A model generated the notes under the pieces. It was not told the DNA's origin. It made no database searches and worked only from the letters and a program-made list of their open reading frames with translations. Of a stretch of DNA of 64,000 nucleotides, positions 9,758-63,154 are shown piece by piece; within the stretch, counting starts at the first letter, position 1; the number at the start of each line of letters is the position of its first letter. The position numbers and the translations under genes were made by a program. The stretch comes from Calditrichia bacterium (GTDB lineage Bacteria > Calditrichota > Calditrichia > JAJRVZ01). Location: the NCBI GenBank assembly GCA_963777955.1, contig CAVZSQ010000022.1, positions 641,020-705,019 on the forward strand, in the 5' to 3' direction.

Positions 9758-9807
9758 GGTTTAACTCAGTAAACATAATTATAAATCTCGCTATCAGAAA
9801 TAAGAAT

Positions 9808-11103: not shown

Positions 11104-12977
11104 ATGAACGTGCTTAAGAAAATTTTTCAAAGTGTTACACCGCTTAAACGGACCATCTTCTTTGTTATCGCTGATGGAATTATTTTTATTATTTCCCTGT
11201 ATCTTTCCTATGCGTTGAAATTCGGACTAAAACTGCAAAGCCACCCCTTCCCGTATGATTTCGTACTCAACGCTATTCCGTTATTCCTGGTCGTTAAATT
11301 CCTGGTCTATTTCAAACTGCATTTATACCAGTTCACCTGGCAATACGTGGGGCTGAATGAATTATATAACCTGCTCAAAGCTAATACGATCAGTGCAGCG
11401 ATCATTTTTCTGGTTTATTTCATCGGCTTTAGTTACGTCCCTAACTGGCTGCCCAAGAGTGTAATCATTTCCGATTATTTTATTTCCTTCATTCTGGCCG
11501 GCTCGCTGCGTATCATTAAACGCTTGTTCATTGAGATCTTCAAACCGGCACGGACCAAACGGGGTAAAACAACTATTATTATTGGTGCCAACAGCACAGG
11601 CGAAATGATCATGCGTGACCTGCGCCGGGAGAATTTCGAAAATTACTTGCCGGTAGCCTTCCTGGACGAGGATCGCCGCAAGTGGAATACCTATATTCAT
11701 GATATAGCAGTGTTAGGCGATGTCAGCGTTCTGGAGACTGTAGCCAGGAAAATGGATGTGAAGGCCTTGCTGATAGCTGACCATTCGCTGAACCTGCGAG
11801 AGATTAAAAATATCTATACCACGGCGAACAAGCTGGGAATCAAGGAAATAAAAATCGTTCCCAAGTTGTACTCGATTACCAATGCGGAAGTCACGGTGAA
11901 AAAACTGGAAGATATCCACGTGGAGGAGTTGATCAACCGGCAGGAAATCCAGGTTGAAGCCGAGAAGATAGGCCAGTTCCTGAAACAAAAAACCATCCTG
12001 ATCACCGGTGCGGCCGGTTCGATCGGATCCGAAATCGTGCGCCAGGTTATGATATTTAATCCTGCCAGGGTAATTATTTTCGAAATAGATGAGACTGAGA
12101 TTTTCAATCTGGAAAAACAACTGGACGAGCGATTTCCTGAAGTTGATCGACCGGGTCATCTACATCAGTTGTCGGTGATGTAAAAGATAAAAATAAAGTT
12201 TTCACAGTTTTCGAAAAATATAGACCGGAGATCGTATTCTCGACCGCAGCATATAAACATGTACCATTGATGGAATCCAATCCGGATGAAGCAATCAAAG
12301 TAAATCTGTTCGGAACCTATCATCTCTGCGCTGCAGCGGATAAATTCGGTGTCCAGAAATTTATCAATATTTCCACGGATAAAGCGGTCAATCCGCGCAG
12401 CGTGATGGGTATGACCAAGCGGATCGGGGAATATATCGCCCAGGCTTTCAACGAGACCAGCAAGACCCGCTATATATCGGTGCGTTTCGGCAACGTATTC
12501 GGTTCGCGCGGCAGCGTGATCCCGGTTTTCCTGGAACAGATCCGCAAAGGGGGGCCGGTAACGGTAACCCATCCCGATATGCAGCGTTATTTTATGACCA
12601 TCCCGGAGGCGGTAACGCTGGTACTGCAGGCCAGCGTACTGGGACAGGGGGGCGAAGTGATGATCCTGGATATGGGCGAGCCGATTCATATCACCAAAAT
12701 GGCCGAAGAACTGATCAAACTGCATGGCCTTACTCCGGGACAGGATATTGAAATCACTTATACCGGTATTCGTCCCGGTGAAAAAATATTCGAAGAGATC
12801 CTGACCGCCGAAGAGGGAACAACCAAGACCACCCATGAACGGATCTATGTGGCTATCGTGTCAAATCGCTATAACCGCCAGGAAATCGATAAACTGATGG
12901 AAAGTTTTAATGTAGCACTCAATAATGGGATATCGCTGGATCAGTTGAAGCAGAGGATTGTGGAGGCGGTGAGGTAA
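11104..12977 (+). CDS. CapD/PglF/WbpM-type membrane-anchored NAD-dependent nucleotide-sugar 4,6-dehydratase, with an internal frameshift near 12165
   Basis: N-terminal TM helices plus the ILITGAAGSIGSEI Rossmann motif sit in ORF 11104-12183. The conserved ...VGDVKDK...VFHAAAYKHVPLMESNP... continues in other frames into ORF 12267-12977. Confidence 0.75.
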
Positions 12978-13424
12978 ATGAGGGACAGAGGGACAAAGAG
13001 ACAAAGGGACAAAGGGAAAACGATATTTAGGAGTTATTAAGTAGGAGGCGCTTCCCAGCGCCGATTAACGGTAGCCGCAATCTTTAGATTGCGGAAGAGT
13101 ATTATAACGAAATGCCAGTAGCCGCGACTTGTGTCGCGGCGAAGGAATCAGATTCCTGCCCTAATGCGGGCAAGCCTGCAATATGAAATGCAGGAATGAC
13201 GGTGCGGTAGATTTATAGTTTGTGCACCCAAAGATTCCTCCTCGTCCCGGTAAATCGGGTCTTGTCGGAATGACAGTTTGGATAGAATTTTACAAGGATA
13301 TAGTAGAGATTGTCTTGGAGGGTAAAGGGTAGAATGAAAACTAAGTACCTTATTGTCTTTCCTTTATCCTTTACCCTTTAGCCTTTATCCTTATATATTA
13401 ATACCGATCAATAAAATATTAATC
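12978..13424. repeat. intergenic 8-bp-period repeat element (locus 1): AGGGACAR x5 array, then a roughly 300-bp run of GC-rich hairpins, then inverted TAAAGGG-type repeats
   Basis: 12981-13020 reads agggacag|agggacaa|agagacaa|agggacaa|agggaaaa. Hairpins follow: ccgcaatc-ttta-gattgcgg, gccgcgac-ttgt-gtcgcggc, cctgca-atatgaaa-tgcagg and ggtgc...gcacc. 13321-13336 ggtaaagggtagaatg faces 13361-13390 cctttatcctttaccctttagcctttatcc. Confidence 0.6.
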
Positions 13425-20947: not shown

Positions 20948-21040
20948 AAATATATATACTTATTCATATTTATTATCGGATAATTTTAGTCCAAATCAAG
21001 TCCGGAAATGAAAATAGCAGGAAGTCGATCAGTTTAATTA

Positions 21041-21140
21041 AGGGACAAAGGGACAAAGAAATAACCCATTAAGGGGTGGTATTAGGCGTAAAATGATAAG
21101 GCACTGGTATTGGTACAAAGGGACTCAGTGCTTAACATCA
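21041..21140. repeat. intergenic 8-bp-period repeat element (locus 2, short)
   Basis: agggacaaagggacaaag at 21041-21058, followed by ggcactg...acaaagggactcagtgc, an inverted GCACTG/CAGTGC pair around an ACAAAGGGACTCAG unit. Confidence 0.5.
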
Positions 21141-32276: not shown

Positions 32277-32322
32277 GTTGTATATTTTCGACAGACGGGT
32301 GTTAAAATTCTGTAATAGAAAT

Positions 32323-35300
32323 ATGAAAGTCGGCACTGCTAAAATAAAATCGATCTTAGTTTACAGCGGGACTTTCAGCGTTCTGTTCTGCTGGATAAAT
32401 GTACTCCAGGCGCAAAAACCTGCCAGTTATTCTGAGCGACTGGAACTCAACGCACAAGAACCAGCCAGGAATTATAAAACAGAGCACGGTAAAACAGACC
32501 GGACCAGCGGAGTGTTGCGTTATGTCTATCAGGAAAAATACAATACTGATCAACTAACCCCACAGGCTGTCGCCCGGGAGTATCTGCAGCTGCAGGGTCA
32601 AAGATTTGGAATTTCCTCTTTACAGCAGGAACTTCAATTTTTACGGGAGGTCAAAAGTCCGGCCGGACAGCAGTTGATTTATCAGCAGCTGTTTCAGGGT
32701 ATTCCCGTCTGTAATTCAGGGATTATACTGACCCTTGACTACCAAAACACTATCACTTTTGTCAGCAGTACCTTCCGGCCACAGTTGAAAGTCAAAGATC
32801 TTCGTGCTGCAATTTCAGCCGGGCAGGCTATACAATTCGCCGAAAAATATCTGTCCAGTGATTATTCAATTTCAGAAAAACCCAATGCAGAACTGATGAT
32901 TTTCAATCCGGTTGCGGCCGCAGGGATACTGGTTTACCGGATACAAATAATCATTCGCGAGCCCCGGGGTGACTGGGAACTGCTGGTGGATGCGGCAGAT
33001 GGCAGGGTATGGCAGGCCAGAAACCTGTTGCGTTTTCAAACAGGGGCTGACGGACGGGGATTAATCTGGGATCCGGATCCGCTGTCCAGTGCCGGGGTTT
33101 ACTATGGCGGATTTTTCATTGATAATAATGATGCGGATGCTGCTGTGCTTAATTCCCAGCGTGAATTCGTTATTTTGAATGATTTGAAATATGAAAATGG
33201 AAAGTATTATCTGGACGGACCATATGTTAAACTGGAAGATATCGATAATAATCCTGTAGATATATTTCCGGCTTTAAGCGACTCGAGCGGATTTAACTTT
33301 ACGCGGCATCAACAGGAATTCGAAGATGTAATGGTTTATTATAATCTCGATCGCGCCGGACGCTACCTGAATTATTTAGGATTTGAGATTGACAGTTTAC
33401 TGGCTTTTCGTGCCGATCCGCACGGTTTAAATGGCAGTGATAATTCTTATTACTCTCCTTTCGAAAATAATTGTGTTTTTGGCGAGGGGGGTGTTGATGA
33501 TGGTGAAGATGCAGACGTGATCTGGCATGAATTTGCGCATGCGATCATGGCTCAGATCCATTATCCGCTGCTGATGAATTATGAAGGTGAAACAGCCGCA
33601 CTGGAGGAGGGCAGTGCCGATTACTGGGCTGCCTCCAATTCACGGGCTGTATCTGATTTCGCCTGGGAGCAATTATATCTCTGGGATGCCGGCATCGGTT
33701 CAGCACAGAATGACCAGGGAATTTTCTGGTCGGGCCGGCGCTGTGACCTGAACTGGCATTATCCGGAAGATTATGATTTCGCTGCTGTCAAGGGACATAC
33801 CAACGGCCAGATCTGGTCGTCGGCTTTAATGCATATCTGGTCCGATCTTGGACGCGAAATCACCGACCGACTGTTCATCCAGGCAATATATCTGTGGGGG
33901 ACTTCACCCGATTTCCACGATGCCGCACAGGCTTTCGTCCAGGCCGACCGGCTTTTATACGGCGGTCAGCATCTTGCCGATATCGTCTACTGGTTCGGGT
34001 ATCACGGCTTGATCGATGCCGGGCAGACTTTTCCGGTGATAATTCACGAACCGCTTGCGGACAGTGAAGATTTAACCGGCCCTTATACCGTGCGGGTGGA
34101 AATTATTCCGGCCACAGCACCATTGGATACAAATAATCTGTGGCTGGTCTGGGGTTATAATGGAATATTTTCGGATTCTCTGCTGCTGACTGCTCTGGCA
34201 GAACCCAATGTATATAGGACAGAGATTCCCGGCGCGCAACAGGTAGTTTCGATCAATTATTATATTACGGCCGCCGATTCGGCAGGTTATTTTACGTCCG
34301 ACCCCGGTCGCGCTCCGCTGGAATATTATTCCTTCAAAGTCGGACCTGATATACAGGCGCCGGTAGTAGTACATACGCCGCTTAAAAACCAATCGTTCTG
34401 GCGCTGGCCTGCTATTTTGAATGTCTATGCCACCGATAATGTGGGTATTGCAGAAGTGCAGGTTTATTATTCTTTAAATCACTCCGCGGAAATGTACTCA
34501 GTCCAGCTTGCCCCGGCAGAGGTACCCGGCTGGTTCAGCGCTGCATTCGGTCTGGATACAAGCCAGGTCGAAATTGGCGATACGGTACATTATATGATCC
34601 AGGCCCGGGATAGATCGATTGCCGGAAACAGCACCGTCGCGCCTCTGAGCGGGTATTACAGTTTTGCAGTGACCGGCAGCGGCGCTGAAATTGTATTTGA
34701 TTTCGAAACTGATGATGGCGGGCTGGCAGCCGACGGCGATTGGCAATGGGGCAAGCCCGGCAGCGGTCCCCGGGCTGCACTAAGCGGCGAATATCTTTGG
34801 GCAACTAAACTGGACGGGAACTATAGCAATGGTCCGGGGCTTTCCACTCTGGCCCTGCCGGTCGTAGATTTGCAGGGCTTCGCGGTGGCTGCGCTGCAAT
34901 TGTGGCAGTGGTATGATATAAAAGCGAGCGGTGACGGCGGTAATGTTAAAGTATCGGCAGATGGTGGATTAACCTGGCAGGTTCTCCAGCCGTTATTCGG
35001 TTATGATGGGATGACGGATACGCTCTCCGGGAATCCGCTGCAGGGCGAGCAGGTATTTTTTGGCAACAGTGCCGGATGGGTAAAAACATTTTTTAATCTC
35101 GATTCCTATATTGAACAAAGTATACAGCTAAAATTTGAGTTCGCTGCTGATGCTGTTGAAACGGGATTCGGTTGGTATATTGATTCAGTTGCCATAGTGG
35201 AAAAATCGGCGAAATTATATCCGCCCGGAAGTATAACAGTTTTGGATAATCATGTTTATGTCAAATTAGGCTGGGATTACCTGAATATGCTTAAAACTCC

Positions 35301-35863
35301 GCCTGGATCAACTCCAATTTTAAAAGATTTATCAGGGCAGGCAGAGAATAATTCACTCCTGCCGGAAGAATTGATATTTAATGTATACCGGCAGGCAGAC
35401 CTTGGTAATTTCAATCTGATCGGGCAAACGGTGCAGTACTCTTATACAGATTCAGACTGTCGAACAAGGTCGGTCATATACATACTACCTTACCTCGCAG
35501 GCAGGTACTTTGGAGAGTGAACCGTCGGATACTATCCAGGTCACAGTTCAGGCCGTAATCGATGTGCGCAACGAACCTGCCGCCGCAGGTATGCTGCCGC
35601 AGGTTTATACCCTGGGGCAGAATTATCCAAATCCCTTCAATCCGCTCACAGTAATAAAGTATCAATTGCCTCGGTCTGATCAGGTTAAACTGAGTGTTTA
35701 TGATATTCTGGGTCGTGAACTGAAAGTATTGGTAAACAAAGAACAACAAGCCGGGTACTATCAAGTGGAGTTTGATGCTCGCAATCTGGCCAGCGGCATC
35801 TATATCTATAGCCTGCAGACAGGGAGATTTGTCTCGGTTAAAAAGATGATAGTGATAAGGTAA
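32323..35863 (+). CDS. secreted HExxH zinc metalloprotease (thermolysin/fungalysin-like active site) with a MAM-like domain and a T9SS C-terminal sorting domain; frameshift near 35470-35490
   Basis: Signal peptide after M at 32323. HEFAHAIM...(18 aa)...EEGSADYW resembles the M4/M36 HExxH...ExxxD arrangement. ORF 35510-35863 carries a Por/T9SS CTD (NYPNPFNPLTVIKYQLP...) and reads in frame with the upstream sequence (...YTYYLTSQAGTLESEPSD...) after a 1-nt shift. Confidence 0.65.
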
Positions 35864-35922: not shown

Positions 35923-35957
35923 AAAAAAGGCGTTCCGGGGAACGCCTTTTTATTTTT
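35923..35957. terminator. bidirectional intrinsic terminator between the convergent protease and OMP genes
   Basis: aaaaaaggcgttcc-gggg-aacgcc-tttttattttt: a GC stem flanked by an A-tract and a T-tract. Confidence 0.7.
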
Positions 35958-35970
35958 CATTAAGACCGAC

Positions 35971-36531
35971 TTATTTTCCCAGATTGAAATACATACCGAC
36001 GGTAATTTCGATGGTATTCAGATCAGAGATAATATTGTATTTGCCCTGAACGAAACCAGTGCTGCCGCCGAAAGGCATTTCATAACCGGCCAGTAATCCA
36101 AAACCAATTTTAGATTCGGAATCACTTTCGGTGGTGCTTTCCAGGGTGAAAGGATTGTAAGACGGGAATTCGATGGAGAGCATATTAAATGATAATCCAC
36201 CGCCAACATATAAACCCTGCATACTGGCGATATGATAATGAACATCAGCGCCAATCTGAATGTTGGAGAGTTTAAGATCTTCATTAAGATCAAATGCGTC
36301 GTAGGTATATTTACTTGACCAGTAACCGACGAATGGGTACAAACCTAAATTTTCAGCCAATTCCCCCATATTGATCTTGGCACCAATATGAAAACCCATG
36401 TCCCATGGATCTTCCGGCATGACCAGACCAAGTTGCGGTGCAATCGCCTTAAAACCCAGCCCCTGAGCTGAGCTTGAAGTAATAAAACCAAAAGCCAGCA
36501 CGAGAAGCAGAATTGTGAATAATTTTTTCAT
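35971..36531 (-). CDS. small outer-membrane beta-barrel protein (OmpW/OmpA-TM-like)
   Basis: Signal peptide, alternating amphipathic beta-strands, and a C-terminal aromatic residue region. Length is 186 aa. Confidence 0.6.
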   Translation of the reverse strand: MKKLFTILLLVLAFGFITSSSAQGLGFKAIAPQLGLVMPEDPWDMGFHIGAKINMGELAENLGLYPFVGYWSSKYTYDAFDLNEDLKLSNIQIGADVHYHIASMQGLYVGGGLSFNMLSIEFPSYNPFTLESTTESDSESKIGFGLLAGYEMPFGGSTGFVQGKYNIISDLNTIEITVGMYFNLGK

Positions 36532-36604: not shown

Positions 36605-36870
36605 GTTTTTTATTCCCGGATAGTATCGAAGTACCTTAGTTCCTTAGTCCCTGAGTTCCTTAGTCCCTTAGTACCTGAGTTATTCCCGCTGAGCGATTGG
36701 TACGCCTGATCGTATGTTGGCGGTAATCTTTAATGAAGGATATACGTTCATAAGAAGGCGCTTACTAACACCCGAACACGGGCTAGTGTAGCGCGGATTG
36801 CAGGAATGATAGATTTGATGAAAGGTACTCAGGTACTCAGGGACTAAGGAACTTAGGTACTAAGGTACTA
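36605..36870. repeat. intergenic 8-bp-period repeat element (locus 3): inverted arms of about 50 bp (TNCCTNAG x6 and AGGNACTN x6) flanking a roughly 140-bp GC-rich core
   Basis: Left arm 36631-36682 reads taccttag|ttccttag|tccctgag|ttccttag|tcccttag|tacctgag. Right arm 36824-36870 (ggtactcaggtactcagggactaaggaacttaggtactaaggtacta) is its imperfect reverse complement. The core contains ATTCCCGC...GGCGGTAAT, AGGCGCTT and TGCAGGAATGA. Confidence 0.7.
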
Positions 36871-36955
36871 TATTTAGAATAAAATCCCTCTTTTGCTTAA
36901 CATATTTTTGTGGTAATTTTCCTGAGAACAAAAGATAGCAGCAGGGAGGCGCATA

Positions 36956-38149
36956 ATGACTAAAATCAATTTAAAAAAAGCAAATTTTGCCACATTGTGC
37001 GTACACGGCAGTGGAGGTGTAGATGTAACGACCGGTGCACTCTCTATTCCCATCTATCAAAGTTCCACTTTTGCTTTTCATAATGCCCGTGAAGGGGCCC
37101 AGATCTTTGCCGGAGAGAAAGAGGGGTATGTTTATACCCGCCTCGGAAATCCCACCCAGGCTGCGCTGGAACGGGAAATCGCCTTTCTGGAAAATGGTGA
37201 GGCCGGTCTGGCTTTTGCCTCCGGAATGGCTGCTATAGCGGGGGTAGTGCTGTCCCTGTGCAAACAGGGCAGCAACCTGGTATCGAGCAATACACTTTAT
37301 GGCGGTACCCATCAACTGTTCATGGAAACATTACCGGATTACGGCATAGAAGTTCGGGAGGTCGATGGTCGTGATCTGCCCGCCATCGAAAAAAGTATCG
37401 ATAAGAATAGCAGGTGTCTATATATCGAGACGCCGGCTAACCCCACGCTGGCGATCATTGATATAGAAGGGTGTGTCCGAATTGCCCGTAAACATAAGAT
37501 TCCGCTGATCGTGGATAATACTTTTCCCACCCCATATTTTCAACGGCCCCTGGAACTGGGAGCTGATCTGGTGATTCACTCAGCTACAAAATATATTGGC
37601 GGGCACGGCGATACAGTGGCCGGGCTGGTGATCGGCCGTAAAAAATATATCGATGAACTGCGCGGGACGATTTTACGCGATATCGGCGGGATTATCAGTC
37701 CGCTAAACGCCTGGTTGCTGGTACGCGGATTAAAAACCCTGGCTATCCGTATGGAACGGCACCAGGAAAATGCTTTCGAGATTGCCAAATATCTTACTTT
37801 TCATCCCAAGATAGAGCGGGTCTGGTATCCCGGGCTGACCACACATCCTCAATATGAACTGGCCAGGAAGCAAATGAGCGGATTCGGCGGCATAGTATCC
37901 TGCGAGGTTAAAGGGGGGCGTAAAGCGGGAGAAAAATTCATGAACAATGTCCAGATCTTTACATTAGCTGTGAGCCTGGGTGACGTGGATTCCCTGATCG
38001 AACACCCTGCTTCGATGACCCATTCGACCTACAGTGCCGAGGATCTGAAAAAAACAGGCATTTCCGCAGGATTTGTGCGTCTGTCGGTCGGAATTGAAGA
38101 CAGCCATGACTTGATCGAAGATCTCTCTCAGGCTTTACGTAGAGTGTAA
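36956..38149 (+). CDS. PLP-dependent Cys/Met-metabolism enzyme (methionine gamma-lyase / O-acetylhomoserine sulfhydrylase / cystathionine gamma-synthase family)
   Basis: Family signature around the PLP lysine (SATKYIGGHGD), a 397-aa length, and an AGGGAGG SD sequence upstream. Confidence 0.8.
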   Translation: MTKINLKKANFATLCVHGSGGVDVTTGALSIPIYQSSTFAFHNAREGAQIFAGEKEGYVYTRLGNPTQAALEREIAFLENGEAGLAFASGMAAIAGVVLSLCKQGSNLVSSNTLYGGTHQLFMETLPDYGIEVREVDGRDLPAIEKSIDKNSRCLYIETPANPTLAIIDIEGCVRIARKHKIPLIVDNTFPTPYFQRPLELGADLVIHSATKYIGGHGDTVAGLVIGRKKYIDELRGTILRDIGGIISPLNAWLLVRGLKTLAIRMERHQENAFEIAKYLTFHPKIERVWYPGLTTHPQYELARKQMSGFGGIVSCEVKGGRKAGEKFMNNVQIFTLAVSLGDVDSLIEHPASMTHSTYSAEDLKKTGISAGFVRLSVGIEDSHDLIEDLSQALRRV

Positions 38150-38353
38150 GATTAATTTTCCGGAACTTTTTTTTGACAAAGGCATGCAATTCCCATTGAT
38201 CTGTAGTAATTAACTGTATAATAATATGATTATTTTAATCCATTTGTGGTCGAGGCAATGCTTGATTTTATATTTATAATAATATAAATTTTCTATCTTT
38301 TTAGTGAAATACTGTGGTTAATCATATACCGTTTTAAACCAGAGAGGTCTACT

Positions 38354-41615: not shown

Positions 41616-41616
41616 T

Positions 41617-41790
41617 AAAAAGGGACAAAGAGACAAAGGGACAGAGGGACAAAGAAGGCACTGAGGCACTGAGCAAAAAGTACCTGAGTCCCTGAGTCCC
41701 TAGAGAAAAATACAGGACACGGGGTCATTCCCGCTAAACGGGTGCTTTGTTTGATCGTATATGGGCGGGAATCTCTGCTAATAAAGGACA
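41617..41790. repeat. intergenic 8-bp-period repeat element (locus 4)
   Basis: 41621-41656 agggacaaagagacaaagggacagagggacaaag. Then ggcactgaggcactgag. Then 41673-41704 tacctgagtccctgagtccctagag in inverted sense. The core is ATTCCCGCtaaacgggtgctttgtttgatcgtatatgGGCGGGAAT, a 9-bp stem. Confidence 0.65.
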
Positions 41791-49510: not shown

Positions 49511-49646
49511 GGAAGGGACAAAGGGACAGAGATCGGAGGCCGGGCGAAACCAGGCCGGAGACCTGCCAATAGGCAGGGACAAAGGGACAAAGTAATGACT
49601 AAGGGACTAAGGGACTAAGGAACTAAGGAACTCAGGTACTAAAAGG
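49511..49646. repeat. intergenic 8-bp-period repeat element (locus 5): all units in the GGA sense
   Basis: aagggaca|aagggaca|gag, then a hairpin insert (ggccgggcgaaaccaggccgg; cctgcc-aata-ggcagg), then agggacaa|agggacaa|agtaatga|ctaaggga|ctaaggga|ctaaggaa|ctaaggaa|ctcaggta|ctaaaagg. The array is contiguous in one 8-nt register. Confidence 0.7.
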
Positions 49647-49714
49647 ATATAAGATTAAAGATGAAAGATTAAAGAAATAAAGTATGCAGGTACTTAAGAT
49701 TTGAAAATCCGGAA

Positions 49715-50722
49715 TTGCTTCAGCTGCTGTGGGGAGTATTATTGTTACTCGGTTTTTTTATCAGCATGAACCGCTATAAAAAACAATTGCTCAAACATTT
49801 CGGTAATCTGGAGATTCTGCACAAACTAATGCGCAGTTATAGTCCCGGCCGCCGGAATCTGAAGATCCTGTTACTCTTATTGAGTTACGTTTTTTTTGTA
49901 ATTGCACTGGCTAATCCGCAGATTGGCACCAGGTTGGAAGAAGTGAAGCGGGAAGGGGTTGATATCATCATCGCCATCGATGTTTCCAAGAGCATGCTGG
50001 CCGAGGATATTACGCCAAATCGTCTGGAAAAAGCCAAACATGCAGTCAGCAGGTTTCTTGACTTACTGCAGGGGGACCGTATTGGTCTGGTCGCTTTTGC
50101 CGGTATTGCCCATGTACAATGTCCCCTTACTCTCGATTATAGCGCGGCCAAATTATTTCTGAGTATCATTGATCCGGGCCTGATTCCGCAGCCCGGCACC
50201 GCGATCGGTGAAGCGATTAAAGTGTCCGCAGCGGCATTCAACGTCAAGGAGCGTAAATCTAAAGTTTTGATCTTGATTACCGATGGTGAAGAACATGAAG
50301 GGGATCCGGTAGAAGCCGCCACGGAAGCAGAAAAACAAGGGGTCATTATTTATACGGTCGGTATCGGTTCACCCGAAGGGGTACCGATTCCGGAATACAG
50401 TCAATCCGGGGCACAAACTGGATTTAAAAAAGACCGGCAGGGCAGCGTGGTGACCACCAAACTGGATGTTTATACTTTACAGAAAATTGCCTATGAAACC
50501 GGCGGTAAATATTATCTGGCCAGCAGCAGCGAATCCGAACTGGACGATATCTATGATGAAATCCTGGCCATGGAGAAAAAAGAACTGGTTTCCAAACAAT
50601 TCTCCCAGTATGAAGACCGTTTTCAGATCTTTCTGGCTATCGGTCTGTTTTTTCTGATCGCTGAAATTCTGATCCCGGAACGCAGGAAAGTAAAGGCGGA
50701 ATGGGAAGGGAGGTTCGTGTGA
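49715..50722 (+). CDS. batB: vWA-domain aerotolerance protein BatB
   Basis: TM helices plus a vWA MIDAS motif (DVSKSM). The TTG start at 49715 is uncertain. Confidence 0.7.
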   Translation: MLQLLWGVLLLLGFFISMNRYKKQLLKHFGNLEILHKLMRSYSPGRRNLKILLLLLSYVFFVIALANPQIGTRLEEVKREGVDIIIAIDVSKSMLAEDITPNRLEKAKHAVSRFLDLLQGDRIGLVAFAGIAHVQCPLTLDYSAAKLFLSIIDPGLIPQPGTAIGEAIKVSAAAFNVKERKSKVLILITDGEEHEGDPVEAATEAEKQGVIIYTVGIGSPEGVPIPEYSQSGAQTGFKKDRQGSVVTTKLDVYTLQKIAYETGGKYYLASSSESELDDIYDEILAMEKKELVSKQFSQYEDRFQIFLAIGLFFLIAEILIPERRKVKAEWEGRFV

Positions 50723-51423
50723 TCCGTATATATTTCGTACTGATTGTTTCTTTATTTACGGTCTCTGCCGGATTTGCTCAATCCATGCGCGGAAAAATAA
50801 ATGCCGGCAATAAAATGTATCACCAGGAAAAGTATGATGAAGCCCTGAACAAATATAAGGATGCCCTGCTGGATGATCCCAAAAATGAGATTGCCACTTT
50901 TAACCAGGGTGACGCTTCCTATAAAATACAAAAGTACGATGAGGCCATCGAATCTTTTCAGAAAGTGATGGGCAGCAAGGATTTAAAGTTGGAAGAACAG
51001 GCTCATTTCAATATTGGTAATTCCTGGTTCAAGCAGGATAAATTACAGGAGAGTATTCAGGCCTATAAAATGGCGCTGGACCTTGATCCTGATGATCAGG
51101 ACGCTAAATATAATCTGGAACTGGCCCGGGCAAAATTAAAAGAGCAGGCACAGAAACAACCGATGCAGCAACAGCCGCAACAACAGCAGCAAGACGGGCA
51201 AAATCAGCAGCAACAGAACCAGCAAAGTCAGCAGCAGGAACAACAACAGCAACAACAACAGCAGCAGGCTCAGCCGCAAAACCAGGAGCAGGTCGACAAA
51301 GATAAAATGTCAAAAAAAGATGCCGAACGTATTCTGGATGCCCTGAAAAACCAGGAAAAAGAAAAACAAAAACGGCGGCGCATGGTTCCCCCGACCAGGC
51401 GCCAGGTGGATAAAGACTGGTAA
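50719..51423 (+). CDS. batC: TPR-repeat protein BatC with a Gln-rich low-complexity tail
   Basis: A GTG start overlaps the batB stop (GTGA), with a GGAAGGGAGG SD upstream. TPR repeats are followed by a poly-Q/CAG-CAA tract. Confidence 0.65.
   Translation: MIRIYFVLIVSLFTVSAGFAQSMRGKINAGNKMYHQEKYDEALNKYKDALLDDPKNEIATFNQGDASYKIQKYDEAIESFQKVMGSKDLKLEEQAHFNIGNSWFKQDKLQESIQAYKMALDLDPDDQDAKYNLELARAKLKEQAQKQPMQQQPQQQQQDGQNQQQQNQQSQQQEQQQQQQQQQAQPQNQEQVDKDKMSKKDAERILDALKNQEKEKQKRRRMVPPTRRQVDKDW
51148..51290. repeat. CAG/CAA trinucleotide repeat tract encoding poly-Gln in BatC
   Basis: cagcaacagccgcaacaacagcagcaa...caacaacagcaacaacaacagcagcag. Confidence 0.7.
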
Positions 51424-53251: not shown

Positions 53252-53252
53252 G

Positions 53253-53505
53253 ACACAAAGTAAGGGACAAAGAGACATAGAGACAAAGGGACAAAGAAAG
53301 GCACAAGGTACAAAGTAAAAAGTAACTGAGTTCCTTAGTCCCTGAGTACCTGAGTAATGCACTTAGCATAATCATCCCGGGCATGTCGGAGACCTGGCGC
53401 AGACAGGACCCGGGATCTATATGTGTCAAATTATAGCTTGATTCCCGCCTTTGGCGGGAAGACGAGTGTGTGGTTCTATCGAAGGCTAAAGGGTAAAGGG
53501 AAAAG
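53253..53505. repeat. intergenic 8-bp-period repeat element (locus 6)
   Basis: 53253-53320 gacacaaagtaagggacaaagagacatagagacaaagggacaaagaaaggcacaaggtacaaag. Then 53323-53358 in inverted sense, taactgagttccttagtccctgagtacctgagt. The core has cccgggcatgtcggagacctggcgcagacaggacccggg and ATTCCCGCctttgGCGGGAA. Then ggctaaagggtaaagggaaaagg. Confidence 0.7.
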
Positions 53506-53544
53506 GATAGTAGATTGTTGGAAATAAATTTAAATACAAATATT

Positions 53545-54808: not shown

Positions 54809-56264
54809 TCATCCTTTAATCACACCCAGCGGTTTTAAACGGGCGACTTTCCGGCTGATGCCGGAATGGTGCATTACGTCCACAACCATGGCCACATCTT
54901 TATAGGCATAAGGCATTTCTTCGGCGATGGTGGCCCGTCCCTTAGCCTGCACGGTCACTCCCATTTTTGACATTTCAGCGAAGAGATCACGGCCGCGACC
55001 TGTATCCAGCGCCCGCTTGCGGCTTTGCAATCTTCCGGCGCCGTGACAGGTACTGCCAAAGGTTTCATCCATGGCTACCTTTGTTCCCAGGCAGATAAAA
55101 GAGTACCGCCCCATGTCTCCCGGCACCAGTACCGGCTGTCCGATTTGCCGATAGGCCGGAGGCAATTCAGGACTGCCGGGGCCAAAGGCGCGGGTAGCTC
55201 CTTTACGGTGCAGGCACAGTTTTTTTTCTTTACCGTCTATTACATGAGTTTCAATTTTAGCAATGTTATGACAAACGTCGTAGATCAATCTGAATTCCAG
55301 CTGGGCGGGAGAGATGGACAGGATTTGCATGATAGTATCTTTTGCCAGGCTCATGATCACCTGGCGGTTGGCCCAGGCAAAATTGGCCGCTGCAGCCATC
55401 GCCCCTAAATATTCCTGTCCTTCCGGCGACTTTACCGGGGCACAGGCCAACTGCCGGTCGGGCAGGGCGATCCCGTAGCGCTGCGAAGCCTGGCCCAGTA
55501 ATTTCAGAAAATCATCACAGATCTGATAACCGCATCCGCGGGAACCGGTATGAATCTGGATAACAATCTGATTCAGAAATAATCCCAGTATTTCCGCTTC
55601 CTCCGGTAGAAAGATATGGTCGACCACATCCACTTCCAGAAAATGATTACCGGAACCCAGGGTCCCTACCTGCGGGCTCCCGCGCTCAATCGCCCGCTTG
55701 CTGACGTATCTGGGTTCGGCCCAGTCTAAGACGGCCGTTCTCTTCGGTATAAACCAGATCTTCTTTGTCACCGAAGCCCTGCTCCACGGCCCAGTGTGCT
55801 CCCTTATGCAGCAGATTGTTCATTTCTGCCTGGTTCAGTTTGCGGATGGCGCCTTCCGAACCAACGCCTGTGGGGATATTCCTGAACAAAGCAGTGATCA
55901 ATTCCGGTAACCGGGATTGTACATCATTGCGGATCAGCGAGGTACGGGCCAGGCGTACACCACAATTAATATCGTAACCAACGCCGCCCGGCGAAATAAC
56001 CCCTTCATCATAATCGGTTGCTGCCACGCCGCCAATCGGAAAACCATAACCCCAGTGAATATCCGGCATACCCAGCGAATATTTCTGTATACCCGGCAGA
56101 TGGGCCACATTGATCACTTGCTGGATGCTCTCGTCCTCGGCAATAATGGTTTCCATCATCTTTTCCGAAGCATAGATCCGGCCGGGGACACGCATGTTAC
56201 CGGTAGCAGGTATTTCATATAAGTGATCATGGATCTTTTCTATATCTATATTTTTGTAATGCAT
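54809..56264 (-). CDS. rtcB: RNA-splicing ligase RtcB, with a frameshift within 55686-55771
   Basis: ORF 55686-56264 holds the RtcB N-terminus and ORF 54809-55771 the C-terminus, with conserved His/Cys metal ligands. The two halves overlap by 86 nt in different frames. Confidence 0.7.
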
Positions 56265-56760: not shown

Positions 56761-56980
56761 AGTAGCTTAGTTCCTGAGTACCTGAGTTCCTTAGTCCCTT
56801 AGTTTCTGAGTGATTCTTATTTAGTTTATCTCCTGTTATTAATATAAGATTCATGTTAATATATGGTCAAGTGTGGCTGCGATTTAAGTCAGAAATAAAA
56901 GAAAATCTTCAGGGTTAAAAAGAGTATGGATAAAAAATCAATTTACTCAGGTACTCAGGTACTCAGGGACTCAGTGCCTT
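56761..56980. repeat. intergenic 8-bp-period repeat element (locus 7): inverted arms flanking a roughly 130-bp AT-rich core
   Basis: Left arm 56761-56811 agtagcttagttcctgagtacctgagttccttagtcccttagtttctgagt. Right arm 56945-56978 actcaggtactcaggtactcagggactcagtgcc is its inverse, followed by TTTT. Confidence 0.7.
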
Positions 56981-56984
56981 TTAT

Positions 56985-58292: not shown

Positions 58293-58410
58293 AATTTATA
58301 TATTTTAAAAAACAACGGATTTATGATTGTATTCAAAATCACAATCTACTGATAAAAATTCGTTGAATTTTATGACATTACTTGACTATGGGTGAAGGGA
58401 AAAGTCGTGG

Positions 58411-58445
58411 ACCTGGCGATAGATATGTCGGAGATCTATCGCCAG
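58411..58445. promoter_or_regulatory. 13-bp perfect inverted repeat with a 9-bp spacer in a divergent promoter region
   Basis: CCTGGCGATAGAT-atgtcggag-ATCTATCGCCAGG. The spacer and flanks (atgtcggagatct) resemble the GTCGGAGACCTGGCGC submotif of the locus-6 repeat core. Confidence 0.4.
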
Positions 58446-58669
58446 GTAGAGGTAAAGAGTAAAACAAATACTATTGAATATCGCCAAACAATTAGTTATT
58501 ATTTAAGCGTGCCAATAAATAGTCTACCCTAATTGAACTAATAACAGACATATTGACTAAGCATAAAACAATTTTAATTTTTCGTAAACGATCATAAGTA
58601 ATCGTCTCTAATCAGAAGTATACTATGATATATGAGATATATTTTGTGTACTATTTTGAGGAGTCTGAC

Positions 58670-61293: not shown

Positions 61294-62596
61294 ATGCGAG
61301 ACTTAATAAGGCAAAAAATTGTAGACTCACTGGCTTCACCACTTCCGGCATTCACACTTCGCGATATACAATTACCCGCCATCCGGGGTAAAGCATTTGC
61401 TATTATCGGAATGCGTCGTACAGGTAAGTCCACTTACCTGTGGCAGGTACTGAACGAAAGGTTGCAACAAGGATTCGAGCGCGAAAGTTTGCTTTTTTTT
61501 GGTTTTGAAGACGAACGTCTTGCCGGTATGAAGGTATCTGATCTCCAGATAATGCTGGAGGAATATTACCGCTTATATCCGAATTTGAGAGACAAAGGCC
61601 GTACTGTATTCTTCTTAGACGAGATACAGGTGGTGCCTGGCTGGGAGATTTTTGCACGGCGTTTATTGGAAACTGAAAAGATCGAACTATTCTTATCCGG
61701 CTCGTCAGACTCGACTGTTATCACGTGAAGTGGCCACCAGTATGCGTGGCAGGGCTATGGAGGTTTTAGTACATCCGTTCAGTTTTCGTGAGTATCTGCG
61801 GCATCTTGGCAGGGAGCCTGTTTCTAACCCTGAGCGTTTACCTAAAGCATCACGGTCAGCCCTGGAAAAAGATTTACGTGAATACCTAACCAGGGGTGGA
61901 TTCCCTGAATCTGTGGGAACCATAGCCCGCGACCGTTTTGACCTGCTGCGTGGATACGTCGATACTGCTTTACTTCGTGATGTAATAGAAAGACATAGGG
62001 TGTCTCACCCGGTGGCCCTACGCTGGATGATTCGTCAGTTGCTGGCGAATGCCTCAGGATATTTCAGTATTAATAAATTTTACTGTGATCTCAAATCGCA
62101 GAGTATACCGATAGCAAAAGACACGCTTCATGAATACCTTAGTCACCTCGAGGATGCTTTTCTGATTAGAACAGTTTCATTGTCAACTAGGTCGGAACGA
62201 CGACGTATGGTGAATCCACGTAAAGTATATCCGGTAGATCCCGGTTTAATACCAATTTTTAGTGTAAGTGGAGAACCTGATCTGGGTCATGCGTTAGAGA
62301 CTTGTGTTATGTTGGAATTAGAACGGCGTGGTGCTGATATCTCTTATGTCCGTAATAAAAGCGGATCCGAGGTGGATTTCCTGGTGCGATACCCGGATGG
62401 TCACCGGGAACTGCTGCAGGTCTGTACCCATATGGATAGTGCAGATGTGATGAAGCGTGAACTCCGTGGATTGGTCGAGGCACGCGCAGAAAATAGAAAT
62501 GTCACAGCTCATATAATAATGCTTGAGCCAGAGCGACCTGCAAATCTACCTGAATCGGTCAAATTTCATGCGGCAAGTGACTGGCTTCTATCCTGA
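61294..62596 (+). CDS. AAA+ ATPase of the AAA_14/DUF4143 family (COG1373-like), with a frameshift within 61652-61728
   Basis: Walker A GMRRTGKST, Walker B FFLDEIQ, and a C-terminal DUF4143-like region. ORFs 61294-61728 and 61652-62596 overlap in different frames. Confidence 0.6.
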
Positions 62597-62599
62597 ACT

Positions 62600-63154
62600 A
62601 TGGGAAAGTTAAAAGTAAATACTACCATTCAGAAACCATCGGCAAGTCCTTCAAAAAGCAATTTACGACGTGTAAAACCGCTCTGGTATGTCTATGCCAT
62701 CGAATGTGATAATGCCAGTGTCTATATCGGCCAGACCCGTGACCTGACCCGGCGCTGGGCCCAACATCTGAAGGGACATGGCGCCCGCTGGACCAGAAAA
62801 TATAAACCGTTACGCTTGTTTTACAGCGAAGAATGTAAAAGTTATCTGGCTTCGCGAAAGAGGGAACGGGAACTGAAAAAAACCAAAGGCAGAAATTTTT
62901 TAAAAACCATATTAAAAAAGACTGATCTGCAGGCTGGTAAATCGATCAAAAAAGTACATTCAGGAGGTATTATTATGGCAGAATCAAAATCAGAATTGCT
63001 CACCGCCGGGAATATCGCCAAGGTATTGTCGGTATCCGATGCTAAAGTAAAAAAGGTAATTCAGGAATTAGCGATTAAACCTGCGGCCAAGAAGGGGGTA
63101 TGTAACTATTATTCCAAGGATACTGTATCCAGGATAAAGGCGGCTCTGAAATAA
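62600..63154 (+). CDS. GIY-YIG nuclease-domain protein with a C-terminal basic, possibly DNA-binding, region
   Basis: WYVYAIEC...VYIGQTRDLTRRWAQH matches GIY...YIG plus the conserved Arg of GIY-YIG endonucleases. It starts 4 nt after the ATPase gene. Confidence 0.55.
   Translation: MGKLKVNTTIQKPSASPSKSNLRRVKPLWYVYAIECDNASVYIGQTRDLTRRWAQHLKGHGARWTRKYKPLRLFYSEECKSYLASRKRERELKKTKGRNFLKTILKKTDLQAGKSIKKVHSGGIIMAESKSELLTAGNIAKVLSVSDAKVKKVIQELAIKPAAKKGVCNYYSKDTVSRIKAALK

What the first reader, a model, noticed from the sequence alone, without database searches (positions are those of the whole stretch)
36605..36870. Recurrent family of intergenic elements built from 8-bp-period degenerate tandem repeats (AGGGAC[A/T]A / TNCCTNAG), often as inverted arms around hairpin-rich cores
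The same repeat appears at seven intergenic loci in 64 kb: 12978-13424, 21041-21140, 36605-36870, 41617-41790, 49511-49646, 53253-53505 and 56761-56980. Units keep a strict 8-nt register while drifting in sequence (agggacaa, agagacaa, agggacag, ctaaggga, ctaaggaa, ctcaggta). Opposite-sense arrays at loci 3 and 7 form inverted arms of about 50 bp that could fold into long imperfect hairpins. The cores share diagnostic submotifs across loci: ATTCCCGC...GCGGGAAT stems at loci 3, 4 and 6; GGAGACCTGGC at loci 5 and 6 and near 58427; TGCAGGAATGA and AGGCGCTT at loci 1 and 3. This pattern does not look like REP/BIME elements or CRISPR to me. It looks like either a novel MITE-like repeat or a family of structured regulatory RNAs or protein-binding arrays. 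All seven copies lie at operon boundaries or inside operon gaps.
Basis: seen in the sequence. Interest (0 to 1): 0.75.

Follow-up and report, generated by a model that had tools for sequence, protein, structure and literature searches.

The report
Mosaic octamer-repeat elements between genes
The gaps between genes in this Calditrichota genome hold a real, recurrent family of 8-base tandem repeats and small hairpins that appear, vanish and flip between close relatives; it is an unnamed variant of the known bacterial intergenic repeat mosaics, not a new kind of system.

Summary
Seven of 21 intergenic gaps carry strict period-8 arrays of the unit AGGNACWN. A 3-unit pattern gives 16 hits against 0 in shuffles, and a relaxed 2-unit pattern hits only once in 58 kb of coding DNA. 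At loci 3 and 7, inverted arrays fold into long hairpins (z = -8.4 and -4.4).

The window comes from a Calditrichota bacterium. The cores hold hairpin modules GTCATTCCYGC-N30-GCRGGAATC. These share head and stem with the Neisseria NTS/dRS3 repeats, but they fail the published SRM pattern.

At orthologous sites in relatives the elements are present, absent, or built from other units. In a relative whose flanking gene is 97% identical, 217 bp of the focal element is exactly inverted, with the crossovers inside the arms. Both promoters lie outside the arms.

AGRGACWA arrays also occur in many other phyla. There, 29 of 123 start within 8 nt of a stop codon on the sense strand, against 7 of 123 antisense.

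Best reading: a BIME/NIME-like mosaic of STRR-like tandem arrays and REP-like hairpins. It is non-coding, it turns over at the DNA level, it recombines, and its effects on RNA are secondary. I did not determine its function. Novelty: new variant of a known kind. Interest: about 0.5.

The parts
36620..36681 (-). Focal locus, left arm: about 6.5 octamer units (AGGTACTA, AGGGACTA, AGGAACTC ...) that read AGGNAC on the minus strand.
   Evidence: It pairs with the right arm (I3/I7). An arm is present at the same site in relatives L128, L129, L130, L132 and L254.
36821..36871 (+). Focal locus, right arm: six octamer units on the plus strand, inverted relative to the left arm.
36682..36820 (.). Focal locus, core: hairpin modules between the arms. 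No promoter-like site was found inside it.
   Evidence: The core content differs in every relative examined.
36679..36728 (+). Hairpin module GTTATTCCCGC-N30-GCGGTAATC, with an NTS/dRS3-like head and stem.
   Evidence: The same module is in L128 and, at another locus, in L129. Stem covariation in metagenome copies.
36800..36811 (-). Solitary inverted 'head' (reverse complement CTATCATTCCTGC). Together with the module at 36679 it makes the core a REPIN-like doublet.
   Evidence: it pairs in the fold.
36646..36862 (.). Segment found in inverted orientation in relative L128.
   Evidence: 94.9% identity over 217 nt in reverse orientation, while both flanks align directly (88.9% and 90.0%). Sequences shown.
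12977..13025 (+). Locus 1: A-type array (AGGGACAA). The first AGGGAC starts 3 nt after the stop codon at 12975-12977.
13151..13200 (-). Locus 1: hairpin module GTCATTCCTGC-N30-GCAGGAATC, with a compensated stem. A second GTCATTCC...GGAAT module is at 13234-13273 (-). There are also two GTAG-headed palindromes at about 13072-13145.
13360..13392 (-). Locus 1: heptamer array (TCCTTTA on the plus strand, i.e. TAAAGGA on the minus strand).
   Evidence: I22 (90% complementary to 53482-53510).
21040..21135 (+). Locus 2: a short A-type array (2.4 units) plus a stray unit at 21119-21134. It is antisense to both flanking genes.
41616..41703 (+). Locus 4: A-type array starting 5 nt after the stop codon, then AGGCACTG units, then an inverted B-type array (41679-41701).
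   Evidence: Collinear with locus 6 (D10).
41724..41773 (+). Locus 4: hairpin module GTCATTCCCGC-N30-GCGGGAATC.
49511..49675 (+). Locus 5: two short A arrays around a GC hairpin, then a 5-unit B array, then an AAGATTA heptamer array. The first AGGGAC starts 3 nt after the stop codon.
   Evidence: About 120 nt of this is absent at the orthologous site of L121, whose BatA is 95% identical.
53252..53506 (+). Locus 6: A array, an inverted B array (53325-53357), a TCATCCCGGG...CCCGGGATC hairpin, the TTCCCGCCTTTGGCGGGAA hairpin (53442-53460), and an AAGGGTA heptamer array (53482-53506).
   Evidence: The orthologous gaps in L123 and L125 are only 51-53 nt.
56761..56981 (.). Locus 7: inverted B-type arms (56766-56807 minus sense, 56939-56981 plus sense) around an AT-rich core. 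One arm ends 4 nt from the stop codon of the upstream gene.
58385..58450 (+). A further related hairpin (14-bp stem ACCTGGCGATAGAT/ATCTATCGCCAGGT) flanked by AAGGG-type fragments.
62600..63154 (+). GIY-YIG nuclease-domain gene. It is a possible partner of the NTS-like hairpins, but the link is unproven.
   Evidence: Pfam PF01541, E = 1.3e-16. Best solved relatives are UPF0213 proteins. No NTS-like hairpins flank it.

Best explanation
The focal element and its six sister loci are non-coding mosaic intergenic repeats of a Calditrichota genome. They are built from two kinds of module. The first is tandem arrays of an octamer AGGNACWN (with heptamer relatives), comparable to cyanobacterial STRR, to 'long simple sequence repeats', and to the TAACTGA repeats of Beggiatoaceae. 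The second is GC-rich stem-loops with a GTCATTCC head, which belong to the widespread NTS/dRS3/REP-like hairpin repeats.

**Shown.**
- The modules are confined to DNA between genes.
- Composite blocks have been copied between loci.
- Whole elements are present, absent or replaced at orthologous sites in relatives.
- At the focal locus, the two inverted arrays have served as crossover sites for an inversion of the 217 bp between them.

**Inferred.**
- The family lives mainly at the DNA level. Arrays grow and shrink by slippage in 8-nt steps.
- Inverted arrays extrude as hairpins in single-stranded DNA. That makes the loop a hot spot for template switching, for breakage and repair, and for insertion of hairpin modules. 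This would explain why the cargo between conserved arms differs in every relative.
- New copies persist only where they do no harm: just after stop codons and between divergent promoters.
- Where they are transcribed (loci 1, 4-7), the hairpins probably act secondarily as 3'-end or intercistronic structures that affect mRNA stability or read-through, as REP/BIME elements do.
- The invariant A1, G2, A5 and C6 of the unit suggest that some factor reads the unit, most likely on a single strand. I have not identified that factor.
For: - **Intergenic restriction and significance:**
- **Strict register with position-specific constraint:**
- **Duplication of composite blocks:** loci 4 and 6 are collinear (D10).
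- **Hairpin modules:** they recur with a fixed 30-nt loop and a compensated stem. Among 82 distinct metagenome copies the variable stem pair is C-G in 60, T-A in 19 and mismatched in 3.
- **Turnover at orthologous sites:**
  - Locus 5 is absent in L121 (BatA 95% identical).
  - Locus 6 is absent in L123 and L125.
  - Locus 4 is absent in L123, degenerate in L122, L130 and L133, and retained with the same hairpin in L129.
  - L129 has a hairpin insert between moxR and DUF58, where the window genes overlap.
- **Inversion:** one search shows 217 nt at 94.9% identity in reverse orientation, with direct flanks and inner arm units exchanged. The longest exact inverted match between the arms is 15-19 nt, shorter than usual assembly k-mers.
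- **Cargo between the arms:** it differs in L128, L129, L130, L132 and L254.
- **Promoters outside the arms, none inside:**, plus conservation of the flanks.
- **Hairpin potential:**
- **No coding or RNA-family signal:**
- **Strand:** all five A-type arrays lie on the G-rich strand, including the one antisense to its genes. In other genomes the AGGGAC strand is the G-rich strand of its surroundings in 69 of 101 loci.
Against: - I found no transposase, RAYT or recombinase among the roughly 50 window ORFs scanned.
- I found no clear target-site duplication.
- The mobilising activity is therefore inferred, not seen.
- In other phyla the arrays start within 8 nt of a stop codon far more often in sense than in antisense orientation (29 of 123 against 7 of 123, p = 1e-4). 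That points to an RNA-level, translation-linked or transcription-linked role, which a purely selfish DNA model does not predict.
- The invariant positions in the unit also suggest function.
- The inversion rests on a single short metagenome contig (L128).
- Only 64 kb of this genome was available.
Confidence: 0.5

Rival explanations
1. The octamer arrays are arrays of binding sites for an oligomeric single-strand (RNA) binding protein, in the manner of TRAP, HutP or CsrA targets. On this view they act after transcription, at the 3' ends of coding regions or in intercistronic spacers, on termination, re-initiation or stability. The hairpins and inversions would be incidental.
For: - Four unit positions are invariant and three vary freely, in strict 8-nt spacing. 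A similar pattern appears in 589 non-seed units from other phyla.
- Arrays in the sense orientation abut stop codons: 29 of 123 against 7 of 123 antisense. In the window, the first AGGGAC of four of the five A arrays starts 3-11 nt after a stop codon.
- An 8-nt period does not keep sites on one face of duplex DNA. That favours a single-stranded ligand (general knowledge).
- B units contain TAAGGA/TAAGGG, which resemble a Shine-Dalgarno sequence (read from the sequence).
Against: - In the window, arrays occur in both orientations relative to transcription. Antisense examples are at locus 2, at 41679-41701, at 53325-53357 and at 56939-56981.
- The focal arms lie upstream of both predicted promoters and so may not be transcribed.
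- Orthologous sites lack the arrays or carry unrelated units. That is unexpected for a conserved regulator.
- No candidate protein was identified.
Confidence: 0.2
2. The focal element is a phase-variable invertible switch (an inverton). It would control the divergent outer-membrane-protein gene (35971-36531, -) and the methionine gamma-lyase-like gene (36956-38149, +), with the octamer arms as recombinase sites.
For: - Both orientations of the same 217-bp segment exist in near relatives.
- The crossover zones are only about 16-28 nt long (overlaps of the alignments). That is short for RecA-type recombination.
- The location between divergent genes, one of which encodes a surface protein, is typical of invertons.
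Against: - There is no promoter-like site inside the segment. The promoter-like sites, and the conserved flanks that contain them, lie outside the arms.
- The cargo is not conserved. It is replaced in L129 and L254 and is short in L132.
- I found no recombinase gene among the ORFs scanned in the window.
- The two orientations come from different lineages (about 90% nucleotide identity in the flanks), not from one population.
Confidence: 0.1
3. The arrays are ordinary neutral microsatellite-like products of replication slippage that arise independently at each locus. Their co-occurrence with hairpins would then be coincidence in AT-poor intergenic DNA.
For: - Relatives carry many other 7-10-nt arrays in their intergenic DNA.
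- Unit numbers differ between orthologous arms.
- Arrays are usually stand-alone in other phyla: only 9 of 123 have an inverted partner, and the hairpin head is not enriched near them.
Against: - The same unit family appears at seven loci, and loci 4 and 6 share a composite order of modules (D10). This implies copying, not independent birth.
- The units are degenerate, yet constrained at fixed positions. That is not the pattern of recent slippage followed by uniform decay.
- There are strong orientation and stop-codon biases.
Confidence: 0.15

Closest known systems
STRR (short tandemly repeated repetitive heptamers of heterocystous cyanobacteria) and 'long simple sequence repeats' (Mrazek et al. 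2007, as cited in PMC4679880)
   Same: - Short (5-11 nt) units repeated in tandem.
- Many intergenic loci per genome.
- Lineage-specific unit sequence.
- Function unknown.
   Different: - The unit is 8 nt and the host is Calditrichota.
- The units are degenerate but constrained at fixed positions.
- The arrays often occur as inverted pairs around hairpin modules.
- The description of STRR here rests on my own knowledge. The library search for STRR found only passing mentions.
Intergenic TAACTGA direct repeats of marine Beggiatoaceae, some Cyanobacteria and Bacteroidetes (MacGregor 2015, PMC4679880)
   Same: - Short direct repeats confined to intergenic DNA.
- Found in distant phyla with no evident transfer mechanism.
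- Orthologous intergenic regions in relatives lack them.
   Different: - TAACTGA sets lie within a few nucleotides upstream of start codons in forward orientation.
- The octamer arrays here lie at the other end of genes, abutting stop codons.
- The arrays here also occur in inverted pairs.
REP/BIME elements and REPIN-RAYT systems (E. coli, Pseudomonas, Neisseria; bioRxiv 10.1101/2021.07.10.451892)
   Same: - Extragenic, GC-rich imperfect palindromes combined into mosaics.
- Inverted doublets with a variable spacer.
- Located after stop codons and inside operons.
- Persist in a lineage with slow turnover.
   Different: - No RAYT gene was seen in the window.
- The conserved flanks are tandem octamer arrays rather than single REPs.
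- The cargo differs in every relative.
Neisseria dRS3/NTS repeats, NIMEs and the Ssn-related motif (SRM) cleaved by GIY-YIG Ssn nucleases (Nat Commun 2025, PMC11893778)
   Same: - The window hairpins carry the NTS head and stem: GTCATTCCCGC...GCGGGAATC against the NTS CGTCATTCCCGCGMAVGCGGGAATCYRG.
- The same hairpin is very common in metagenomes.
- A small GIY-YIG gene lies in the window.
   Different: - The loop is 30 nt, not 0-5 nt, so the published SRM expression gives 0 matches in the window.
- The GIY-YIG gene is not flanked by hairpins, and I could not resolve its subfamily.
- NTS repeats are not associated with tandem octamers.
Invertons (invertible promoter segments flanked by inverted repeats)
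   Same: - Inverted repeats flank a short segment that is found in both orientations.
- The location is intergenic, next to a surface-protein gene.
   Different: - No promoter inside the segment.
- No recombinase nearby.
- The cargo is not conserved.
MITEs (for example Correia elements of Neisseria, Nezha of cyanobacteria)
   Same: - Small, non-coding and intergenic.
- Terminal inverted repeats.
- Presence/absence polymorphism between strains.
   Different: - Copies are not of uniform length or sequence.
- The termini are tandem arrays.
- No target-site duplication was recognised.
- No parent transposon was seen.

Membership tests
STRR / long simple sequence repeats | Tandem head-to-tail copies of a 5-11-nt unit at many non-coding loci of one genome | tested here: met
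   14 arrays in 7 gaps; only 1 relaxed hit in coding DNA.
STRR / long simple sequence repeats | Heptanucleotide unit in heterocystous cyanobacteria (STRR in the strict sense) | tested here: not met
   The unit is 8 nt. The host is Calditrichota.
TAACTGA-type leader repeats (MacGregor 2015) | Repeats in forward orientation within a few nucleotides upstream of start codons | tested here: not met
   Only 2 of 53 sense arrays lie within 14 nt of a downstream start codon. The arrays abut stop codons instead.
REP / BIME / REPIN | Extragenic GC-rich imperfect palindromes, combined in mosaics and inverted doublets | tested here: met
   the hairpin modules, the GTAG-headed palindromes at locus 1, and the inverted heads at 36679 and 36800.
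REP / BIME / REPIN | A cognate RAYT (IS200/IS605-like Y1 transposase) in the genome | not testable with these tools
   None was found among the roughly 50 window ORFs scanned. The rest of the genome is not available.
NTS / SRM repeats with Ssn nuclease | Match to the SRM expression HGTCWYN(0-2)YYVSBRHN(0-5)WNVSBRGN(0-2)RNCYNB | tested here: not met
   0 matches in the window; shuffles give a mean of 0.2. The head and stem match, but the loop is 30 nt.
NTS / SRM repeats with Ssn nuclease | A single-domain GIY-YIG (cd10448) gene in the genome, typically flanked by the repeats | tested here: inconclusive
   There is a GIY-YIG gene at 62600-63154. Its nearest solved relatives are UPF0213 proteins. 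It has no flanking hairpins. CDD assignment is not available with these tools.
MITE | Terminal inverted repeats | tested here: met
   Loci 3 and 7.
MITE | Target-site duplication, and copies of near-uniform sequence | tested here: not met
   The filled-versus-empty site alignment shows no clear duplication. The cores differ between loci and between relatives.
Inverton | The same segment found in both orientations between inverted repeats | tested here: met
   The two orientations are in different lineages, not within one population.
Inverton | A promoter (or other oriented signal) inside the segment, and a dedicated recombinase | tested here: not met
   No promoter-like site lies in 36620-36870. 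No recombinase was found among the scanned ORFs.
Rfam RNA families / CRISPR / tRNA-derived elements | Match to a curated covariance model; repeat-spacer structure; tRNA-like fold | tested here: not met
   The repeats are contiguous, with no spacers.

The most novel reading that the evidence does not exclude
The octamer (AGGNACWN here, AGRGACWR elsewhere) could be a widespread, undescribed cis-signal read on a single strand by an unknown oligomeric factor. It sits immediately 3' of stop codons, on the sense and G-rich strand, in Bacteroidota, Acidobacteriota, Desulfobacterota, Planctomycetota, Verrucomicrobiota, Chloroflexota and others, and also in viral contigs. On this reading it acts in post-termination control or in genome maintenance. 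In Calditrichota, inverted pairs of such arrays would form a recombination-active cassette site whose cargo of hairpin modules is exchanged and flipped.
Probability: 0.2. Interest if true: 0.8.

Novelty: new variant of a known kind. Interest (0 to 1): 0.5.

Why it matters
**Repeat content of a poorly studied phylum.** If the reading is right, about a third of the longer intergenic gaps in this window are occupied by a two-component repeat mosaic. Its arms survive while the cargo between them is swapped and inverted. That would be a compact natural example of how inverted tandem arrays drive local genome rearrangement.

**Reach of the NTS-type hairpin.** The GTCATTCC hairpin, recently tied to Ssn single-strand nucleases, would extend to Calditrichota in a long-loop form.

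**A directly testable regularity.** Arrays of nearly the same octamer sit right after stop codons, on the sense strand, in many phyla. I found no paper that mentions these sequences. The claim can be tested with complete genomes and with RNA 3'-end maps.

**Practical consequences.** These elements can break short-read assemblies. They also create spurious ORFs, because the arrays are purine-rich and A-type units contain no stop codons.

Tried and rejected
- **Rfam.** Nothing relevant at gathering score or at E up to 5.
- **tRNA/tmRNA.** None found.
- **CRISPR.** Rejected: the units are contiguous, with no spacers.
- **Coding repeat.** Rejected: the period is 8, the arrays lie outside ORFs, and the relaxed pattern hits coding DNA once.
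- **Exact look-up of the window's own protein in public assemblies.** No record, so the source genome could not be retrieved.
- **Window genome among the genome-scan hits.** Not present.
- **Literature search for the array sequences.** Doubled units and single units in six rotations gave only unrelated primer hits.
- **CsrA-type GGA motif as the constrained core.** Rejected. AGAGAC and AGGTAC units lack GGA, while A1, G2, A5 and C6 are the invariant positions.
- **Strict SRM membership of the hairpins.** 0 matches.
- **Link between arrays and NTS-like heads in other phyla.** No enrichment: 16 of 123 arrays, against a background of 0.17 per kb.
- **Inverted partner arrays in other phyla.** Only 9 of 123. 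The inverted-arm architecture is mainly a feature of this lineage.
- **Metagenome scan with the hairpin pattern.** It mostly returned hairpins of other phyla. Only L229 looks like the Calditrichota subtype, so it gave no census of orientations at the focal locus.
- **More relatives for the focal site.** P0124 had no retrievable DNA.
- **Target-site duplication at locus 5.** The alignment was not informative.
Full report

Yes. Reading the seven loci shows tandem octamers at every one. Tandem Repeats Finder reports period-8 arrays at all of them. An independent period-8 autocorrelation scan recovers nine blocks of 33-53 nt.

A three-unit pattern, AGRGACWAAGRGACWAAGRGAC with up to two mismatches, matches 16 times, against none in 100 dinucleotide-preserving shuffles. 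Using the ORF map, 7 of the 21 gaps of at least 60 nt carry arrays. A relaxed two-unit pattern hits once in 58,178 coding bases.

The inverted arms at loci 3 and 7 are real:
- Locus 3: 50 nt at 86%, or 44 nt at 91% complementarity.
- Locus 3 as single-stranded DNA folds to -56.2 kcal/mol, against -25.6 for shuffles (z = -8.4).
- Locus 7 as RNA has z = -4.4.
- Locus 4 has z = -3.8.

The shared core submotifs are present. The site near 58427 is a related hairpin, not an exact match to the motif.

**2. Anatomy**

*The unit.* When the 51 units are put in register, position 1 is A in 51 and position 2 is G in 51. Position 5 is A in 50, position 6 is C in 50, and position 3 is G in 45. Positions 4, 7 and 8 vary freely. 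The unit is therefore AGGNACWN.

*Two flavours and two relatives.*
- A-type: AGGGACAA.
- B-type: AGG(G/A/T)ACT(A/C).
- Heptamer arrays of the AAAGGGT type lie at 13360-13392 and 53482-53506.
- An AAGATTA heptamer array lies at 49651-49675.

*Copying between loci.* Loci 4 and 6 are collinear. Each runs stop codon, A array, GGCAC units, AAAAAGTA, inverted B array, then a TCAT-headed hairpin. They are 80% identical over 82 nt (D10). Composite blocks have therefore been copied, rather than arising independently.

*The hairpin module.* The cores contain a module GTYATTCCYGC-N30-GCRGKAATC at 13151-13200 (-), 36679-36728 (+) and 41724-41773 (+). That is 3 matches against 0 in shuffles. One copy has a compensated stem, TTCCTGC/GCAGGAA. 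Shorter relatives lie at 13234-13273 and 53442-53460.

*Position relative to genes.*
- In four of the five A arrays, the first AGGGAC starts 3-11 nt after a stop codon. These are loci 1, 4, 5 and 6.
- One B arm at locus 7 ends 4 nt from a stop codon (coordinates read).
- At the focal locus, both arms lie between divergent genes, upstream of a promoter-like site for the minus-strand gene (36601 to 36574).
- They also lie upstream of the conserved TTGCTT...TAATTT stretch before the plus-strand gene.
- No promoter-like site lies inside 36620-36870.

**3. Where the window comes from**

Homologues of two window proteins reach 70-74% identity in Caldithrix abyssi and in Calditrichaceae MAGs. They reach up to 97% in unnamed metagenome contigs. 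T9SS sorting domains and a Bat/MoxR-type operon fit this placement.

The window's own sequence was not on record.

**4. Orthologous sites in relatives**

*Locus 5 (BatA to BatB).*
- The window gap is 204 nt.
- In L121 (BatA 95% identical) the gap is 86 nt. It lacks the arrays and the hairpin but keeps the downstream GATATAAGA...TAAAG tail.
- L123 also lacks them.
- L125 has inverted arms of a different octamer, AAATGTCA.

*Locus 6.* The window gap is 263 nt. In L123 and L125 it is 51-53 nt.

*Locus 4.*
- L123 has a 20-nt gap.
- L122, L130 and L133 have A-rich degenerate repeats.
- L129 (93%) keeps the A array, and its hairpin module is almost identical to the one in the window's locus 3.

*An insertion in the other direction.* L129 carries a roughly 200-nt hairpin insert between moxR and DUF58, where the window genes overlap.

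*Other units.* Relatives carry arrays of many other 7-10-nt units.

**5. The focal locus in relatives**

B-type arms are present at the same site in L128 (97%), L130 (92%), L254 (90%) and L132 (88%). In L129 (93%) the right arm is reduced to about 1.5 units. The cargo differs in each:

| Relative | Identity of flanking gene | Cargo between the arms |
|---|---|---|
| L130 | 92% | diverged versions of the same hairpin modules |
| L129 | 93% | other short arrays |
| L254 | 90% | an unrelated GC hairpin |
| L132 | 88% | a short core |
| L128 | 97% | the same core as the window, reverse-complemented |

For L128, window 36646-36862 aligns to L128 310-94 at 94.9% over 217 nt. The flanks align directly at 88.9% and 90.0%. 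The inner arm units have changed sides, as expected for crossovers inside the arms.

The longest exact inverted match between the arms is 19 nt in the window and 15 nt in L128. That is shorter than usual assembler k-mers. An assembly artefact is therefore unlikely, though I cannot exclude it.

**6. Beyond this lineage**

- My estimate, assuming uniform base composition, is about two chance matches in 596 Gb.
- The hits come from Bacteroidales, Terracidiphilus and other Acidobacteriota, Desulfobacteraceae, Planctomycetota, Opitutaceae, Chloroflexota and other phyla.
- They include cultured isolates.
- 39 IMG/VR viral contigs also carry such arrays.

*Context, using a simple ORF model.*
- 97 of 128 arrays are intergenic.
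- 29 of 123 start within 8 nt of the stop codon of an open frame of at least 100 codons on the same strand. In the antisense arrangement the figure is 7 of 123 (Fisher p = 1e-4).
- Few lie near start codons.
- The AGGGAC strand is the G-rich strand of its surroundings in 69 of 101 loci (p = 3e-4).
- In the window, all five A arrays are on the G-rich strand.

*Difference from the window.* Only 9 of 123 arrays have an inverted partner within 500 nt, and the TCATTCC head is not enriched near them. The array and the hairpin are therefore separate modules that happen to combine in Calditrichota.

*Unit constraint elsewhere.* In 589 units outside the search seed, positions 1, 2, 4, 5 and 6 are 84-90% conserved. 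Positions 3, 7 and 8 vary.

**7. The hairpins are a known kind**

A metagenome scan with the module pattern also hit its limit. It returned the very common GTCATTCCCGC...GCGGGAATC(CAG) hairpin. Among 82 distinct single-hairpin copies, the variable stem pair is C-G in 60, T-A in 19 and mismatched in 3. Pairing is therefore maintained.

The literature ties this sequence to two known systems:
- The Neisseria dRS3/NTS repeat, CGTCATTCCCGCGMAVGCGGGAATCYRG. It is cleaved in single-stranded DNA by the GIY-YIG nuclease SsnA, and it generalises to a degenerate 'Ssn-related motif' (PMC11893778).
- The Neisseria REPIN master sequence (bioRxiv 10.1101/2021.07.10.451892).

The window modules share the head and the stem. 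They have a 30-nt loop, so the published SRM expression gives no match.

A GIY-YIG gene lies at 62600-63154. Its nearest solved relatives are UPF0213 proteins, and no hairpins flank it. The link is a lead, not a result.

**8. The arrays have analogues but no name**

The closest descriptions are these:
- The TAACTGA direct repeats of Beggiatoaceae, some Cyanobacteria and some Bacteroidetes. These sit just upstream of start codons and are proposed to be post-transcriptional sites (PMC4679880).
- The long simple sequence repeats cited in that paper.
- Cyanobacterial STRR heptamers (my own knowledge; one search found only passing mentions).

No paper in the library contains the octamer arrays.

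**9. Mechanism**

*Shown.*
- Restriction to intergenic DNA.
- Copying of composite blocks.
- Gain, loss and replacement at orthologous sites.
- Inversion through the arms.
- Maintained pairing in the hairpin stem.
- Position-specific constraint in the unit.

*Inferred.*
- Arrays change length by slippage.
- Inverted arrays extrude as hairpins in single-stranded DNA. This exposes the loop to template switching, to repair and to insertion of hairpin modules.
- Copies persist only at harmless positions.
- Transcribed copies act secondarily as RNA structures, as REP/BIME elements do.

*Main tension.* The orientation-dependent association with stop codons and the invariant unit positions hint at a factor that reads the unit on one strand. 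I rank the rivals as follows:

| Explanation | Confidence |
|---|---|
| DNA-level mosaic repeat (best explanation) | 0.5 |
| RNA-binding-array model | 0.2 |
| Neutral slippage | 0.15 |
| True phase-variable inverton | 0.1 |

**10. Verdict**

It is a BIME/NIME-like mosaic whose repeat arms are STRR-like octamer arrays and whose cargo is NTS/REP-like hairpins.

Three results appear to be new:
- The combination of arrays and hairpins.
- The conserved arms with swapped and inverted cargo.
- The cross-phylum placement of near-identical octamer arrays just after stop codons.

Novelty: new variant of a known kind. Interest: 0.5.

Noticed in passing
window 11104-12183 + 12267-12977; 9685-10512 + 10394-10816; 32278-35520 + 35510-35863; 54809-55771 + 55686-56264; 61294-61728 + 61652-62596: Five genes look split into two overlapping or adjacent ORFs, each ORF carrying one part of a single Pfam architecture. 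The genes are a Polysacc_synt_2 protein, a GFO_IDH_MocA protein, an InhA-like protease with its T9SS tail, RtcB, and an AAA_14 + DUF4143 protein. Orthologues of the protease and RtcB genes in relatives are single genes. This suggests indel errors in the assembly, or pseudogenes.
   Followed up: partly
window 62600-63154 (+): A 184-aa ORF has a GIY-YIG nuclease domain at residues 29-98. Its in-frame C-terminal part has its own AGGAGG and ATG at about 62964-62976, so it may be two genes. It could be an Ssn-like nuclease matching the NTS-like hairpins, but I could not resolve the subfamily.
   Followed up: partly
window 58625-61186 (+): An 853-aa protein with a T9SS sorting tail is built from 13 copies of a 141-nt (47-aa) repeat at 60-75% identity. 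It has Rax2-like beta-propeller matches.
   Followed up: no
window 51165-51267: A CAG/CAA-rich (polyglutamine-like) low-complexity stretch lies inside the gene 50701-51423 of the Bat-type operon. A similar stretch is present in L125 at 12702-12763.
   Followed up: no
window 35924-35951: A 12-bp-stem hairpin with T runs on both sides, like a bidirectional terminator, lies between convergent genes. It is conserved in L129 and L132, although the surrounding spacer differs in length (107 against 270 nt).
   Followed up: partly
L129 13887-14091: The relative whose CysMet protein is 93% identical has a roughly 200-nt insert with a GTCATTGCGAG-headed GC-rich hairpin between moxR and DUF58. In the window these two genes overlap by 4 nt. 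Its DUF58 protein is 279 aa rather than 293 aa.
   Followed up: partly
L255-L293 (IMG/VR contigs): AGRGACWA arrays of three or more units occur in 39 viral or proviral contigs. By my estimate this is far above chance. I did not examine their context.
   Followed up: no
L138, L140, L141, L151, L155, L161 and many others: One 50-nt hairpin, GTCATTCCCGCGAAAAGCCTGCCCTGAGCGAAGCCGAATGGGCGGGAATC, recurs almost unchanged in dozens of metagenome contigs from different samples. It implies a very abundant, conserved long-loop NTS-like repeat in some environmental lineage.
   Followed up: no
window 38150-38353 and orthologues in L128-L132: The gap between the methionine gamma-lyase-like gene and the YfiO-like gene has no arrays. 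It is well conserved among relatives: TTTCCGGAACTTTTTT...GGCATG...GCAATGCTTGATTTTATA...ATAATA. This contrasts with the array-bearing gaps and suggests a real regulatory region.
   Followed up: no
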